Source: the human T2T-CHM13v2.0 reference genome, Homo sapiens. Taken from it: a stretch of DNA of 64,000 nt. Shown piece after piece: positions 1,300-8,935 of this stretch (its first letter is position 1; each line of letters starts with the position of its first letter). Both the position numbers and the translations under genes were made by a program. Where the stretch lies: assembly GCA_009914755.4 (NCBI GenBank), contig CP068257.2, forward strand, positions 18,784,001-18,848,000, in the 5' to 3' direction. The notes beneath the pieces were generated by a model, which saw only the letters and a program-made list of their open reading frames with translations, searched no databases and was not told where the DNA came from.

Positions 1300-1661
1300 T
1301 ACTGTGTTAGCCAATTTTCATAATGCTATGAAGAAATACCCAAGACTGAGTAATTTATAAGAAAAATAGGTTAATGAACTCAAAGTTCCACATGGCTAGG
1401 GAGGCTCACAGTCATGGCAGAAAGCAAAGGAGGAGCAAAGGCACATCTTGCATGGTGGCAGGCAAGAGAGTGTGTGCAGGGGAACTGCCCTTTGTAAAAC
1501 CATTAGATCTCAGAGATTTATTTACTCTCATGACAACAGGATGGGAAAATCTCCTCCCATGATTCAGTTATCTCCCACCAGATACCTCCCATGATACGTG
1601 GGGATTATGGGAGCTACAATTAAAAATGAGATTTGATTGGTGACACAACCAAACCATATCA
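1300..1661 (-). mobile_element. Solo LTR of the ERVL-MaLR THE1/MST family in reverse-complement orientation
   Basis: The reverse complement matches the THE1-type LTR consensus along its length. It starts TGATATGGTTTGG...CCCATAATCCCCACGT..., continues ...CATGGGAGGAGATTT..ATGGTTTTACAAAGGGCAGTTCCCCTGCACA...GCCATGACTGTGAGCCTCCC, and ends ...TTATAAATTACTCAGTCTTGGG. ORF 1374..1562 lies inside it and is spurious. Confidence 0.8.
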
Positions 1662-2166: not shown

Positions 2167-3485
2167 TTTTTTTTTTAACCTCTGAACTTTTTATTGGCCT
2201 CCTGCTCCCCAAAGGTACTCTGCTTCTGCTGGCTTAATGTCTGAGAACTTCGGTGTCATTGGTCCCAGACACCACTTTGCCATCCACTGTCTGGCAGGTG
2301 GCAGTCTTTTGGATGGTTTGCATAGAGTTGCTGCTGTCCAGGGCATTACCAAGATTGAAGTCCTCACCATCTTCCAGCAGGGGGTGGTAGGTGGCGATCT
2401 CAGCCTCCAGCTTGACCTTATGTTCAGCAGCGCCTCCTACTCCTGGGCCTGGTGCTGCCCCTCTGCCCAGGTCTGTGGCAACTCGGACTCCAGGTGCATC
2501 AGGGTCCCATTGGGCTGCTCCATTTGCAGGGCATAGCTGGCCTCCACCTCCTTCAGGCTGTTCTCCAAGCTGGCCTTCAGATTTCTCATCGAGTACAGGT
2601 CGATCTCCAAGGACTGAACTGTATGTCTCATCCCCATGAGTATCATCTCAGCAGCTCCAACCTCGATGAACTGTGTGGTGACCACTGTGGTACTCTCCTC
2701 AATCAGCCGAGACTAGTATTTGTCCAGCTCCTCTCGGTTTTTCCGAGCCAGCTCATCGTATTGGGCCTGGATGTCTGCCATGATCTTGGTGAGGTCCTGC
2801 AATTTGAGGGCATCTACTTCCACGGTCAACCCAGAGCTGGCAATCTGGGCTTGTAGGCCTTTTACTTCCACTTCGTGGTTCTTCTTCATGAAGAGCAGCT
2901 CCTCCTTGAGAGCTTCCATCTCTGTCTCCAGCTGCAGTTGAGTGACATTGGTGTCATCAGCGATCTTGTGGAGCCCATGGATGTTGCTCTCCACAGACTG
3001 GTGCATGGCCAGCTCTGACTCATACGTGACTCTAAAGTCATTAGCAGCAATACGGGCATTGTCGATCTGCAGAACGATGCAGGAACTATCCACAGTATTT
3101 GCGAAGATATGAGCACTCAGGTCCTCGATGGTCTTGAAGTAATGGTCCCAGTCTCTGACCTGGGGTCCCTTCTTCTCCAGGGGCTCCCGGATTTTGCTCT
3201 CCAGCTTCCAGTTCTCCGTCTCCAGGCTCCTCACTCTGTCCAGGTAGGAGGCCAGCCAGTTGTTCAGGCTTTGCATCGTCTCCGCATTCTGGATGCCTCC
3301 CATTCCAGCCAGAACCCCGGCCATTCAGGCAGCCAGGACCCCGGACCCCAAACCGACCCGGAAGCTGGTGGAGCAGGACACCAAGATCCGGGAACCAGAG
3401 ACTCGGTGCCTGCGTAGATGGTGGAGAAGGTGGAGCGAGTGGTGAAGCTCATGCTGTCTGGGAGGAGAGAGAGAGGAGAGGACTC
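2167..3485 (-). pseudogene. KRT18P: Processed (retrotransposed) pseudogene of keratin 18 (type I keratin). It is intronless, has a 3' poly-A tail, and carries internal deletions and frameshifts.
   Basis: The minus-strand translation gives MSFTTRSTFST... (ORF 3264..3452), then a 203-aa in-frame segment (ORF 2713..3324), then ORF 2437..2685. The 203-aa segment reads ...LAGMGGIQNAETMQSLNNWLASYLDRVRSLETENWKLESKIRE...LFMKKNHEVEVKGLQAQIASSGLTVEVDA...ADIQAQYDELARKNREELDKY. ORF 2437..2685 reads ...TVQSLEIDLYSMRNLKASLENSLKEVEASYALQMEQ.... Together these are colinear with KRT18 head, coil 1A/1B and coil 2 in one continuous genomic stretch with no introns. The C-terminus ...DTEVLRH* is followed by a 3' UTR with an AATAAA signal and a poly-A tract. 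The tract is a poly-T on the plus strand at 2167-2176. About 70 bp of the head domain is deleted and there are at least two frameshifts. Confidence 0.9.
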
Positions 3486-5047: not shown

Positions 5048-6129
5048 GCCCCCTTTGCTTCCTCTGACATACTCACTCCCTTATTGATTTCATTCTGCTT
5101 CCTCACTAAAAGTACCAATCATATCGCTCTAAAATGTACCTCTCTAACTGAATTTTCCTCTTATACTCTGGATTTATATATTTGACTACCTATACAATAT
5201 ATCCATCTGGGTATCCTATAGACATCTCAGGTTACACATGCCCAGACCTGAATTCCTGATTGCCTTCCCAAGATCTTTTGTACCTGTTTGCTTTGTCATC
5301 ACTATAGATGGGTAATCTACCTTTTAATCAGGCAGCAGATCCTATGAGACGAGGGGTGAGATTTGATCATTGGCTTTAGTAATGTACAAGTCATTGCTGA
5401 ATTTGACAAGAGGTAATTTACTTATGCAAATGCATGAGTTACAATATCACTAAACTTCTGTTAGAGAATATATAAAAATATTTTAAAGTACTGCTAAACC
5501 TTGTTACTTCCACTCCTCACACCCTGGTCAAAGCCACATCATCTCTCACCTGGATTATTGCAGTAAACTCTCTCTTATTAATTTAGTATTCTGCTTCTAC
5601 ATTTGTTGATCCTCCACCTAGGCTATAGATGCTCCTCAATTTACAATGGGGTTGTGTCCCAATATGCATATTGTAAGGTGAAAATCTCATAAATTAAAAA
5701 AAAACACGTTTAACACACTTAGCCTATGAAACATCATAGCTTAGCCTAGTCTACCTTAAATGTGCTCAAAATGCTTACATTACCAGTTAGGCAAAATCAT
5801 CTAACACAAAGTCTATTTTAAAATAAAATGTTAACTATCTCATGTAATTTATTGAACACTAAACTGAAAGTGAAAAACGGAATCGTTGTATAAGTACTCA
5901 CCATTAATGTACAGAGTTGAAAGCATGTTGGGCCTGAAGAACATCTGAGGTATTGAATTAAAATTAATTGCAGGTTGCAGAGGATGCTACAGTGACAGGA
6001 TCATCAATCTCTGTCTCTTCTGATGAGGCTCAAGAATAGCATGCAGAGGCACTGGAACATCCACACTTGTGGATGGTTTAACAGGAATAGTGTTCTTCAA
6101 AATTATTTTAAGTATTGGTTGTTTACCCT

Positions 6130-6531
6130 TGTATTAGTCCATTTTCATGCTGCTGATAAAGACATACCTGAGACTGGGCAATTTACAAAAGAAAGTTTAA
6201 TTGGATTTACAGTTCCACGTGGCTGGGGAACCTTCACAATCATGGTGGAAGGCAAGGAAGAGCAAGTCCCACCTTACATGGACGACAGCAGGCAAAGAGA
6301 GAATGAAGAAGATGCAAAAGTGGAAACCCCTGATAAAACCATCAGATCTCATGAGACTTATTCATGACCATGAGAACAGTATGGGGGACCACCCGCCCCC
6401 CATGCCATGATTCAATTATCTCCCAGTAGGTCCCTCCCATATCTCCCAGCAGGTCCCTCCCACAACACCTGGGAATTATGGGAGTACAATTCAAGATGAG
6501 ATTTGGGTGGGGACACAGCCAAACCATATCA
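6130..6531 (-). mobile_element. THE1/MST-type LTR, read as the 3' LTR of a minus-orientation MaLR element
   Basis: The plus strand reads TGTATTAGTCCATTTTCATGCTGCTGATAAAGACATACCTGAGACTGGG...CCACGTGGCTGGGGA...CATGGTGGAAGGCAAGGAAGAGCAAG...GGGAATTATGGGAGTACAATTCAAGATGAGATTTGGGTGGGGACACAGCCAAACCATATCA. This is the full-length reverse complement of the THE1 LTR. Confidence 0.85.
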
Positions 6532-6883
6532 TTATGTCCCTGGCCCCTGCCAAATTTCATGTCCTCACATTTTAAACCAATCATGCTATTCAAACAGTCC
6601 CCCAAAGTCTTAGCTCATTTCAGCATTAACTCAAAAGTCCACAGTCCAAAGTCTCATATGAGACAAGGCAAGTCCCTTCAACCTATGAGCCTTTAAAATC
6701 AAAAGCAAGCTAGTTATTTCCTAGATAAAATGAGGGTACAGACATTGGGTAAATACAACCATTTCAAATGGGAGAAATTGGCCATAACAAAGAGGCTACA
6801 GGGCCCATGCAAATCCGAAATCCAGCAGGGCAGTCAAGTTTTAAAACTCCAGAATGACCAGAGAGAAATAACCAGTGCAAAAA
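6532..6883 (-). mobile_element. MaLR internal region, 3' end including the polypurine tract, reverse complement; continuous with the LTR at 6130-6531
   Basis: TTATGTCCCTGGCCCCTGCCAAATTTCATGTCCTCACATTTTAAACCAATCATGC...AAGTCCACAGTCCAAAGTCTCAT...GGGAGAAATTGGCCA... is typical THE1/MST-int antisense sequence. Its reverse complement begins purine-rich (GGCAGGGGCCAGGGACATAA), which is PPT-like, immediately next to the LTR. Confidence 0.7.
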
Positions 6884-7137
6884 TCCTGTTCTCATGGTCG
6901 TGAGTAAGTCTTATAAGATCTCATGGTTTTATTAGTGGTTTCCACTTTTGCATCTTCCTCATTCTGTCTTTGCCTGCTGCCATCTCTGTAAGATGGAAAT
7001 CGCTCCTCCCTGTCTTGTGCAATGATTGCAAGGCTTCCCCAGCCTTGGAACTGTTAAGTCCAGTTAAACCTCTTTATTTTGTAAATTGCGCAGTCTTGGG
7101 TACGTCTTTATCAGCAGCATAAAAATGGACTAATACA
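6884..7137 (+). mobile_element. Partial THE1/MST-type LTR (3' portion of about 250 bp) in plus orientation, acting as the 5' LTR of a plus-orientation element
   Basis: CCTGTTCTCATGGTCGTGAGTAAGTCTTATAAGATCTCATGGTTTTATTAGTGG......TTAAACCTCTTTATTTTGTAAATTGCGCAGTCTTGGGTACGTCTTTATCAGCAGCATAAAAATGGACTAATACA is the sense THE1 LTR 3' half and ends with the canonical ...CTAATACA. Confidence 0.8.
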
Positions 7138-7653
7138 ATTAATTCATGTCGGGAGTGGCGCACTGCTGAGAAGATACCCAAAAATGTGGAAGCGACTTTG
7201 GAACTGGGTAACAGGCAGAGGTTGGAATGGTTTGGAGGATTCAGAAGACAGGAAAATGTGTGAAAGTTTGGAACTTCCTAGAGACTTGTTGAATGGCTTT
7301 GCCCAAAATACTGATAGCGATATGGACTATAAGGTTCAGGTAGAGGTGGTCTCAGATGGAGATGAGGAACTTGTTGGGAACTGGAACTAAGGTGACTCTT
7401 GTTATGTTTTAGCAAAGAGACTAGCGGCATTTTGCCCCTGACCTAGAGATCTATGCAGGGTCTCTAGGGAGAGAGACGCTAGAGGGTCTCTTGAACTTGA
7501 GGGAGATGATTTAGGGTGTCTGGTGGAAGAAATTTCTAAGCAACAAAGCATTCAAGCAGTGACTTTGGTGCTGTTAAAAGCATTGAGTTTTAGAAGGGAA
7601 ACAGAGAATAAAAGTTTGAAAAATTTACAGCCTGACAATGGCTCCAGAAAATT
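7138..7653 (+). mobile_element. MaLR internal region (5' part, beginning at the PBS side) in plus orientation
   Basis: ...GCTGAGAAGATACCCAAAAATGTGGAAGCGACTTTGGAACTGGGTAACAGGCAGAGGTTGGAA...GATGAGGAACTTGTTGGGAACTGGA...TTTAGCAAAGAGACT.GCGGCATTTTGCCCCTG... is THE1/MST-int sense, directly continuing from the LTR at 6884-7137. ORF 7184..7390 is inside it. Confidence 0.75.
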
Positions 7654-8039
7654 TATTGTTTTAATTTTTAACTTTTTTGACCATCACAAATAGGACTTTT
7701 TATTTGACACTATTGTAAGTCTGAACTTTAAACACATTCTTGGACTGGTGGTTTATATTCATCAGCTTATACATCTTTAGCACCTGTCTCATCCCCAGTG
7801 GCTTTTCCAGAGCTACTACCTTTACCCAATTCAGACTAGGGCTTCTTCAGCATTTTTACTTTTCTAATGAGAACATCATAAAGGGGATAAATAGACTGGC
7901 AAGGCTTTTCTATGTTTTTCCAGTGCTGCCTGGAATCAATTTATGAACCCCTTCTTTCAAAGCATTTGTCAGCACCTCTCCTTGGGTCATGATTTTCATC
8001 ATCTTCTTCTGGATTTGGTGTACCTGTTGGTGCTGAGCA

Positions 8040-8583
<544 letters not shown>

Positions 8584-8935
8584 GTGTATATATATAAAAT
8601 ATATAAATATATATAAATATATAACATATATTAATATATTATATAATATATAAACATATTATATAATATAATATAGATTATATATTAAATAATATATTAA
8701 TATATTACATAATACATTATATTATATAATATATTATATATTATTATTAATTATATAATATATTAATATATTATATAATTAATAATAATATATAATATAA
8801 TATATTAATAGATGTGCAATATAATATATTAATATATGTGCAATCTAATACATATATGTAATATAAGTATAATATATAATATAATATATATTATGTAATA
8901 TAATACATATATACATATATGTATATACATCTCCT
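8584..8935. repeat. AT-rich simple repeat, (TATAA)/(TAATA)/(TA)n-like, about 350 bp
   Basis: TATATATAAAATATATAAATATATATAAATATATAACATATATTAATATATTATATAATATATAA.... It sits where the upstream Alu would have its A-tail. Confidence 0.9.

What the first reader, a model, noticed from the sequence alone, without database searches (positions are those of the whole stretch)
6130..7653. Head-to-head junction of two truncated THE1/MST (MaLR) elements: a minus-orientation 3' LTR plus PPT-side internal fragment abutting a plus-orientation partial 5' LTR plus PBS-side internal fragment
From 6130 to 6883 the plus strand reads the reverse complement of an intact LTR followed by the reverse complement of the internal region's 3' end. 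At about 6884 the orientation flips to a sense LTR 3' half, which ends CTAATACA, followed by sense internal 5' sequence to 7653. This cannot arise from a simple inversion of a contiguous segment of one element, whose order would be A B rc(E) rc(D). It implies either two independent insertions truncated against each other or a recombination or deletion event between two elements. The switch point at about 6884 lies in the middle of LTR sequence on one side and internal sequence on the other, with no intervening unique DNA.
Basis: seen in the sequence. Interest (0 to 1): 0.5.

Follow-up and report, generated by a model that had tools for sequence, protein, structure and literature searches.

The report
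One rearranged THE1 retroelement, not two
The head-to-head junction is real, but it is most likely a single ancient THE1 (MaLR) retroelement that suffered an internal inversion with losses and a ribosomal-protein pseudogene insertion, which is ordinary genomic decay with no sign of function.

Summary
6130-6531 is a complete THE1-type LTR on the minus strand. 6532-6857 is the last ~327 nt of THE1-int on the minus strand. 6883-7138 is the 3' 256 nt of an LTR on the plus strand. 7139-~7651 is the first ~480-490 nt of THE1-int on the plus strand.

Three details differ from the finding.
- The switch point is not clean. It holds 25 nt (6858-6882) that probably copy an LTR segment in antisense, a templated insertion.
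- The right end is not a bare truncation.
- The claim that one element cannot give this order is a logic error. Inverting LTR5(147-402)+int(1-1252) inside a minus-oriented provirus gives exactly this junction.

The two LTRs are each other's closest relatives among 58 distinct THE1/MST LTR copies (NJ bootstrap 100/100). They share a block combination seen in no other copy. The two internal fragments do not overlap and are equally diverged (about 10%).

Best reading (about 0.7): one provirus with a pseudogene insertion, then an inversion with flanking losses repaired by end joining. No outgroup genome was reachable. Ordinary; low interest.

The parts
6125..6129 (.). ACCCT, candidate half of the 5-bp target-site duplication next to the intact LTR end
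   Evidence: Read directly from the sequence. The partner copy cannot be checked because the other LTR end is missing. Inference only.
6130..6531 (-). Complete THE1-type LTR (W1), interpreted as the 3' LTR of a minus-oriented provirus. It contains a private 23-bp tandem duplication at 6417-6462.
   Evidence: (D7). Full length relative to 49+ other copies, with TG...CA ends.
6532..6857 (-). THE1-int 3' end, positions ~1253-1579 of a 1579-nt reference internal region (L027)
   Evidence: 88-91% identity to many copies and 9.2% substitution divergence from the majority consensus.
6858..6882 (.). 25-nt junction insert (J1), CCAGAGAGAAATAACCAGTGCAAAA. Probably a templated copy of LTR positions ~213-236 in antisense.
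   Evidence: No match in int, the LTR 5' parts or the reference loci. Matches 6296-6319 at 19/24, which is the antisense of 6941-6964 in W2. p = 0.0045 against shuffles and 0.0095 against random window 25-mers.
6883..7138 (+). 3' 256 nt of an LTR (W2, LTR positions ~147-402), interpreted as the remnant of the 5' LTR of the same provirus, now inverted
   Evidence: (I1, I4)
7139..7651 (+). THE1-int 5' end (PBS side). Positions 1-478 are secure to 7640; homology possibly runs to ~491 at 7651. It carries a ~30-nt private insertion near 7458-7490.
7652..7679 (-). Degenerate poly(A) tail (poly-T on the plus strand) of the processed pseudogene. This is junction J2 with THE1-int.
   Evidence: Sequence reading together
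7680..8047 (-). 5'-truncated RPS3A processed pseudogene: 3' UTR with AATAAA (7680-7727), stop codon (7728-7730), codons for aa 153-264 (7731-8047) with in-frame stops and a frameshift
   Evidence: Pfam Ribosomal_S3Ae, E=1.4e-5 and 2.3e-4, below the gathering score.
8048..8290 (.). (TA)n/(TG)n and AT-rich low-complexity DNA abutting the pseudogene's 5' end (J3). The expected continuation of THE1-int (492-1252) and LTR positions 1-146 is absent.
   Evidence: The only other THE1-like match anywhere in the 64 kb is a 68%-identical MaLR LTR at 1303-1661.

Best explanation
This is one THE1 (ERVL-MaLR) provirus that integrated in minus orientation more than 40 Myr ago. Its 3' LTR end at 6130 is still an intact integration boundary. 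An RPS3A mRNA was later retroposed by the L1 machinery into the internal region near position ~490.

A double-strand-break or template-switch event then inverted the block LTR5(147-402) + int(1-~490) + pseudogene. The event had breakpoints at int 1252/1253 and at LTR5 146/147. The remaining pieces, int ~492-1252 and LTR5 1-146, were lost, either in the same event (a deletion-inversion-deletion) or in a later deletion ending in the AT-rich repeat at 8048.

Junction J1 was sealed by end joining. In the process, 24-25 nt were copied from the nearby LTR, either by snap-back (fold-back) synthesis or by a template switch. The structure has no evident function; it is a fossil of repair.

Shown: the anatomy, the strands, the coordinates, the sister relationship of the LTRs, the pseudogene, and the similarity of the insert to the LTR. 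Inferred: the order of events, one event versus two, and the repair pathway.
For: Anatomy and coordinates.

One provirus:
- W1 and W2 are sisters in 295/300 and 100/100 NJ bootstraps among 17 and 58 distinct LTR copies.
- W2's nearest neighbour is W1 by 5.5 points of identity (0.791 against 0.736).
- Both carry an A-type block followed by a B-type block, plus a private C in CTCATGGTC. No other LTR combines the two blocks: 25 A-type and 27 B-type blocks in the loci, with 0 co-occurring.
- Their identity of 79-83% is about the range of genuine 5'/3' LTR pairs, 81-85%.
- The internal fragments cover 1-~490 and 1253-1579 without overlap. They show equal divergence, 10.4% and 9.2%, and the same nearest reference copies.
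- No part of the element is present more often than one provirus allows.

Pseudogene.

Templated insert.

Real locus in several independent human-derived contigs.

Age: THE1 is simian-specific and more than 40 Myr old (PMC10735291). A JC distance of ~0.19 between W1 and W2 gives about 44 Myr at 2.2e-9 per site per year (inference).
Against: - No outgroup or ancestral state could be obtained, so neither the inversion nor its polarity is observed directly.
- The pieces predicted to lie right of the pseudogene (int 492-1252, rc LTR5 146-1) are absent, so at least one extra loss must be assumed.
- The W1/W2 sister relationship would also follow from two independent copies of one rare sublineage, or from old gene conversion between inverted LTRs.
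- The reference panel is 56 copies taken from contaminant contigs, some of which may be chimeric.
- The templated-insert match is only 19/24 (p about 0.005-0.01).
- W2 has more private changes than W1 (27 against 12). Genuine LTR pairs show similar asymmetry, for example 19 against 7.
- The TSD cannot be checked.
Confidence: 0.7

Rival explanations
1. Two independent THE1 insertions in opposite orientation. Element A is on the minus strand and element B on the plus strand. They were later truncated against each other by a deletion running from A's int 1252 to B's LTR position 146. B's remainder was lost at or beyond the pseudogene.
For: The head-to-head order is compatible with this. Both models need two junction-forming events. 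The 25 nt at J1 could be a leftover or filler. W2 is more diverged than W1.
Against: It requires a second insertion of the same rare sublineage within a few kb. None of 56 other LTR copies groups with W1/W2 (100/100 bootstrap) and none has the block mosaic, so that sublineage is probably under ~5% of int-associated LTRs. The retained pieces happen to be exactly complementary, with no overlap, and equally diverged. The rate asymmetry is within the range of true LTR pairs.
Confidence: 0.17
2. Two unrelated elements whose inverted LTRs were homogenised by intrachromosomal gene conversion soon after they came to lie 500 bp apart. This would mimic a sister relationship.
For: Inverted repeats 500 bp apart can convert each other. 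W1/W2 cherry support (100/100) is higher than for any genuine pair in the panel, 0-62%.
Against: The LTRs now differ by 17-21%, so any conversion would have to be about as old as the insertions. It adds a step without explaining the complementary internal fragments.
Confidence: 0.05
3. An L1-mediated retrocopy of a read-through THE1 transcript with twin priming. Read on the minus strand, this would give an inverted 5' segment followed by a sense 3' segment.
For: On the minus strand the order is rc(LTR147-402 + int1-490) followed by sense int1253-1579 + LTR, with the middle missing. That is the topology twin priming produces.
Against: The sense segment ends with a complete LTR including its last bases (..AATACA). 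It abuts the flank directly, with no poly(A) tail and no downstream transcript sequence. An L1-made copy should end in poly(A). The only poly(A) belongs to the RPS3A pseudogene at the other end.
Confidence: 0.03
4. An assembly or scaffolding artefact in the source of the window.
For: Repeats often cause misjoins. Two metagenome contigs of this region (L130, L131) are themselves chimeric.
Against: L128 and L129, from different JGI samples, span the left flank, J1 and J2 at 99.7-99.8% identity. The cores of L130, L131 and L132 are identical across J1 or J2.
Confidence: 0.01

Closest known systems
THE1 / ERVL-MaLR proviruses (THE1x LTR + THE1-int), as annotated by RepeatMasker/Dfam
   Same: LTR with TG...CA ends, ~350-400 bp. 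LTRs abut the ~1.6-kb THE1-int on both the PBS and PPT sides. About 10% divergence from consensus fits the >40 Myr simian-specific activity period (PMC10735291).
   Different: The provirus is broken. The 5' LTR lacks its first ~146 nt and is inverted together with the first ~490 nt of int, and int ~492-1252 is missing. The LTRs combine sequence blocks that are separate in the 56 comparison copies, so they may belong to an intermediate subfamily. The subfamily could not be named without Dfam.
Complex inversions with flanking deletions (delINVdel class of human structural variants) and breakpoint templated insertions (Pol theta end joining / MMBIR).
   Same: An inverted block bounded by losses on both sides, with a short insert at one junction that resembles nearby sequence in inverted orientation.
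   Different: Here it is an ancient, fixed, 1.2-kb event inferred inside a repeat. No pre-event allele is available. One event versus two cannot be told apart.
RPS3A processed pseudogenes (ribosomal-protein retrocopies made by L1)
   Same: Intronless cDNA homology to the C-terminal 112 codons, the 3' UTR with AATAAA, an A-rich tail, 5' truncation, and disabling stops and a frameshift.
   Different: No target-site duplication could be recognised. The 5' end runs into a microsatellite, and the target (THE1-int) does not resume on the far side.
L1 twin-priming inversions
   Same: Topology: an inverted upstream part followed by a sense downstream part, with a gap between them.
   Different: No poly(A) or TSD at the sense end. 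The sense part ends in a complete LTR, which indicates proviral DNA rather than an RNA 3' end.

Membership tests
ERVL-MaLR THE1 element | LTR of ~350-400 bp with TG...CA termini, homologous to other THE1/MST LTRs | tested here: met
   6130-6531 aligns end to end with 49+ copies. Termini TGATATGG...ACTAATACA.
ERVL-MaLR THE1 element | Internal region homologous to THE1-int and directly flanked by LTRs | tested here: met
   6532-6857 and 7139-7640 align at 77-91% to internal regions that lie between LTR pairs in contigs L009, L064, L069, L075, L101 and L109.
ERVL-MaLR THE1 element | 5-bp target-site duplication flanking the provirus | tested here: inconclusive
   Only one end survives (ACCCT at 6125-6129). 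The other LTR end is deleted.
ERVL-MaLR THE1 element | Subfamily call (THE1A-D, MSTA, ...) against the Dfam/Repbase consensus | not testable with these tools
   No repeat library is available. The names THE1 and THE1-int rest on my memory of the consensus sequences plus PMC10735291 for the classification scheme.
Single provirus (both LTRs from one integration) | The two LTRs are closest relatives and the parts are non-redundant | tested here: met
Single provirus (both LTRs from one integration) | Orthologous locus in an outgroup shows an intact or empty site consistent with one insertion | not testable with these tools
   Only human-derived contigs were retrievable. L130 and L131 are chimeric.
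Processed pseudogene (RPS3A) | Intronless homology to the mRNA including the 3' UTR, followed by poly(A) | tested here: met
   Pfam Ribosomal_S3Ae hits in two frames, both below the gathering score. tblastn aa 153-264, E=6e-24. AATAAA and an A-rich tail at 7652-7727.
Processed pseudogene (RPS3A) | Target-site duplication of 7-20 bp | tested here: inconclusive
   Only a weak CCAGAAA(T/A) match, 7645-7652 against 8105-8112, separated from the 5' end by a microsatellite.
L1 twin-priming product | Poly(A) tail and TSD at the end of the sense segment | tested here: not met
   The complete LTR abuts the flank at 6129/6130 without any A-run.

The most novel reading that the evidence does not exclude
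The 256-nt inverted LTR pair with its 500-nt spacer, together with a 5'-truncated plus-strand LTR that keeps its 3' portion and faces an antisense RPS3A pseudogene, could be transcribed. The transcript would be a hairpin or antisense RNA, either a dsRNA / ADAR-editing substrate or an antisense RPS3A-like RNA, with some regulatory effect. Separately, the junction may preserve a rare readable trace of snap-back templated end joining in an ancient primate germline inversion.
Probability: 0.05. Interest if true: 0.35.

Novelty: already known. Interest (0 to 1): 0.1.

Why it matters
It matters little biologically. This is a decayed retroelement of a very abundant family, in a region full of other repeats, with no sign of function.

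Its value is mainly methodological:
- An apparent 'two-element' junction is better explained by one provirus with an internal inversion.
- LTR-pair phylogeny can discriminate between the two readings.
- A short junction insert can still be traced to its template after tens of millions of years.
- Metagenome contigs carrying host repeats can be chimeric and should not be used as paralogues or orthologues without checking.

Tried and rejected
1. I first read both flanks, from memory, as a Tigger DNA transposon with an antisense transposase. Pfam showed the right flank is an RPS3A pseudogene instead, so that reading was rejected. The Tigger-like end at ~5618-5900 remains a memory-based guess.

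2. A viral-contig scan for THE1-int found nothing.

3. The count of rare shared bases between W1 and W2 was uninformative. It gave 2, against 0-5 for genuine pairs.

4. The excess of private changes in W2 was considered as possible error-prone repair synthesis. I dropped this because genuine LTR pairs show the same asymmetry and int5' is not hypermutated.

5. L130 (98%) and L131 (94%) first looked like paralogues or orthologues. L131 seemed to carry an intact 5' LTR, which would have been an ancestral state. Mismatch profiles show abrupt jumps from about 100% to about 75% identity, so both are chimeric assemblies and were rejected as evidence.

6. I tried to reach non-human orthologues through exact ORF look-ups. 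Only human-derived contigs were returned.

7. The 25-nt insert has no match in the THE1 reference loci, the internal region or the LTR 5' parts.

8. Flank continuity across the composite could not be tested. No copy of the left-flank repeat is present in the fetched loci or elsewhere in the window.

9. Apparent internal inversions in other contigs (L038, L053, L108) are not used as support, because those contigs may also be chimeric.

Full report
**What is there**

The window is primate (human-type) DNA.

- From 6130 the plus strand reads TGTATTAGTCC... and at 6531 it ends ...CCAAACCATATCA. This is the reverse complement of a complete LTR with TG...CA ends.
- A second LTR piece on the plus strand (6883-7138, ending GGACTAATACA) is an inverted repeat of 6129-6379, at 83% identity and E about 1e-71.

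No repeat library is offered, so I collected real copies of the family.

- A 19-mer from the 5' internal fragment pulled 7 low-coverage human contaminant contigs out of bacterial genome assemblies.
- A 19-mer from the 3' internal fragment pulled 120 contigs out of (mostly human-associated) metagenomes.
- Against these, 6532-6857 aligns on the minus strand at 88-91% to the last ~327 nt of the ~1.58-kb internal region.
- 7139-7640 aligns on the plus strand at 77-85% to its first ~478 nt. In several contigs that internal region sits between two LTRs.

The names THE1/MaLR and THE1-int rest on my memory of the consensus sequences. The classification and age (three internal classes, THE1 simian-specific, more than 40 Myr) come from PMC10735291.

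**The junction itself (J1)**

- Internal homology stops at 6857 and LTR homology starts at 6883.
- The 25 nt in between (CCAGAGAGAAATAACCAGTGCAAAA) match nothing in the internal region, the LTR 5' parts or the reference loci.
- They do match 6296-6319 in the minus-strand LTR at 19/24. Equivalently, they are the antisense of LTR positions ~213-236, whose copy in the plus-strand LTR lies only ~59 nt from the junction.
- Restricted to the element's own LTRs, this score is reached by 0.45% of shuffles and 0.95% of random window 25-mers.
- I read it as a probable templated insertion. An inverted copy of sequence close to the break is what snap-back synthesis during end joining, or a replicative template switch, produces. 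This is inference from established repair biology, with moderate statistical support.

**The right end (J2)**

I had guessed from memory that the flanks were a Tigger transposon. Pfam refuted that for the right flank.

- The minus strand of 7654-8045 hits Ribosomal_S3Ae, with E = 1.4e-5 and 2.3e-4 in two frames. Both hits are below Pfam's gathering score.
The alignment shows internal stops and a frameshift.
- The stop codon (7728-7730) is followed by a 3' UTR with AATAAA and a degenerate A-rich tail. On the plus strand the tail is a T-run at 7652-7679.
- That tail abuts THE1-int at about position 478-491.

So the 'truncation' of the plus-strand fragment is the poly(A) junction of a 5'-truncated RPS3A processed pseudogene. 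Its 5' end (8047) runs straight into (TA)n/(TG)n and AT-rich low-complexity DNA, an Alu, and more AT-rich DNA to ~8930. THE1-int does not resume there. The only other THE1-like match anywhere in the 64 kb is a 68%-identical MaLR LTR at 1303-1661.

**One element or two?**

Write a minus-oriented provirus as rc(LTR3) rc(int 1579->1) rc(LTR5). Inverting the block rc(int 1252->1) rc(LTR5 402->147) gives rc(LTR3) rc(int 1579->1253) | LTR5(147->402) int(1->1252) | rc(LTR5 146->1). The left junction of that product is exactly J1.

I then tested whether the two LTR pieces behave as the two LTRs of one provirus.

- I aligned 58 distinct LTR copies over the shared 256 nt.
- The plus-strand piece (W2) has the minus-strand LTR (W1) as its nearest neighbour, by 5.5 points of identity (0.791 against 0.736).
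- The pair forms a neighbour-joining cherry in 295/300 bootstraps with 17 sequences and 100/100 with 58.
- Five 5'/3' LTR pairs from single proviruses in the contigs give only 0-62%. Two of these proviruses recur in several independent contigs. Their identities are 81-85%. W1-W2 is 79% in that same alignment and 83% by direct pairwise BLAST.
- The alignment shows why. W1 and W2 both carry 'GGTTTCCACTTTTGCATCTTC', typical of one group of copies. It is followed by 'TCTTTGCCTGCTG...GCTCCTCC.TG.CTT', typical of another group, plus a private C in CTCATGGTC.
- In 394 kb of reference loci there are 25 and 27 occurrences of the two block types, and none in the same LTR.
- The internal fragments do not overlap (1-~490 against 1253-1579). 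They have the same nearest reference copies and are equally diverged from the majority consensus, 10.4% and 9.2%.
- Nothing is present in more copies than one provirus would supply.

Two tests were uninformative. Counts of rare shared bases did not discriminate. An excess of private changes in W2, 27 against 12, is matched by genuine pairs, for example 19 against 7.

**Most likely history** (steps inferred unless stated)

1. A THE1 provirus integrated in minus orientation. The LTR/flank boundary at 6129/6130 is intact (shown). The JC distance between W1 and W2 (~0.19) implies about 44 Myr at 2.2e-9 per site per year.
2. An RPS3A mRNA was retroposed into the internal region near position ~490. 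The junction lies exactly at the end of the poly(A) tail (shown).
3. The block LTR5(147-402) + int(1-~490) + pseudogene was inverted. Its left junction was sealed with a templated 24-25-nt insert.
4. int ~492-1252 and LTR5 1-146 were lost. This happened either in the same event (a deletion-inversion-deletion with breakpoints at int 1252/1253, in or beyond the pseudogene, and at LTR5 146/147) or by a later deletion ending in the unstable AT-rich tract at 8048.

I cannot order steps 2 and 3 with certainty. Alternatively, the pseudogene could have landed at an already existing int/AT-rich junction, since L1 endonuclease prefers such sites. Confidence in the single-provirus reading is about 0.7.

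**Rivals**

- Two independent insertions of the same rare sublineage truncated against each other (0.17). This needs an extra insertion, a coincidence of sublineage (probably under 5%, given 0 of 56) and complementary retained parts.
- Two elements with old gene conversion between the inverted LTRs (0.05).
- An L1-made twin-primed copy of a read-through THE1 RNA (0.03). It has the right topology, but the sense segment ends in a complete LTR with no poly(A).
- Assembly artefact (0.01). This is excluded by independent contigs: L128 (5967-7708, 99.7%) and L129 (1-8112, 99.8%), plus the identical cores of L130, L131 and L132.

**A caution found on the way**

L130 and L131 first looked like a paralogue carrying J1 with a different left LTR, and a copy carrying J2 with an intact 5' LTR. 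That would have been an 'ancestral' state. Their mismatch profiles jump from about 0 to about 25% differences per 50 nt at sharp points: ~6515 and ~7540 in L130, and ~7180 in L131. They are chimeric metagenome assemblies of different THE1 copies and say nothing about ancestry. For the same reason I do not use apparent inversions in L038, L053 and L108 as support.

**Comparison with what is known, and verdict**

Every component belongs to a well-known class:

- a THE1/MaLR provirus;
- a ribosomal-protein processed pseudogene;
- a small complex inversion with flanking loss and a templated junction insert.

Standard repeat annotation of the human genome should already mark the pieces. The only locus-specific conclusion is that they derive from one element rather than two. 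No function is suggested by anything found. Novelty: already known. Interest: 0.1.

The decisive missing evidence is RepeatMasker/Dfam coordinates and subfamilies, and the orthologous locus in other simians.

Noticed in passing
window 7652-8047 (minus strand): A 5'-truncated RPS3A processed pseudogene: aa 153-264, stop codon, 3' UTR with AATAAA, and a degenerate poly(A). It directly abuts the THE1 internal fragment.
   Followed up: yes
window 6417-6462: A 23-bp tandem duplication (TATCTCCCAGYAGGTCCCTCCCA x2) private to the minus-strand LTR. It is absent from all other LTR copies aligned.
   Followed up: partly
window ~7458-7490: An insertion of about 30 nt in the plus-strand THE1-int fragment relative to all reference copies (GGGTCTCTAGGGAGAGAGACGCTAGAGGGTCTC). 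It looks like a local duplication of CTAGAG-containing sequence.
   Followed up: no
window 8046-8290 and 8600-8930, Alu at ~8294-8600: A long (TA)n/(TG)n and AT-rich palindromic low-complexity tract, split by an Alu. It has many near-perfect inverted repeats, is potentially unstable, and borders the pseudogene's 5' end.
   Followed up: no
window 1303-1661: Another, more distant MaLR LTR, 68% identical to the LTR at 6130-6531, in the same (minus) orientation.
   Followed up: no
window ~2444-3331 (minus strand; L129 6415-7302): Called ORFs with Pfam PF00038 (intermediate filament) hits in the human contig L129, which overlaps the window. Probably a keratin-type processed pseudogene upstream of the finding.
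   Followed up: no
window ~5618-5900: The sequence resembles, from memory only, the terminal inverted repeat and subterminal region of a Tigger-type (pogo) DNA transposon. No other copy was found in the window or the loci, so this is unverified.
   Followed up: partly
window ~10010 onward: Looks like the 5' end of an L1 element (GGGGAGGGGTCAAGATGGCCAACTAGAAACAGCT...). Read by eye only.
   Followed up: no
L130 (1-3598) and L131 (1-1389): These human gut metagenome contigs are chimeras of the window locus with other THE1 copies or an Alu. Identity switches abruptly from about 100% to about 75%. Host repeats in metagenome assemblies can be misjoined.
   Followed up: yes
L097 10-1921: This contig shows int 5' part - LTR - int 3' part on one strand, i.e. 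two internal regions sharing one LTR (a tandem THE1 arrangement). It may also be an assembly artefact.
   Followed up: no
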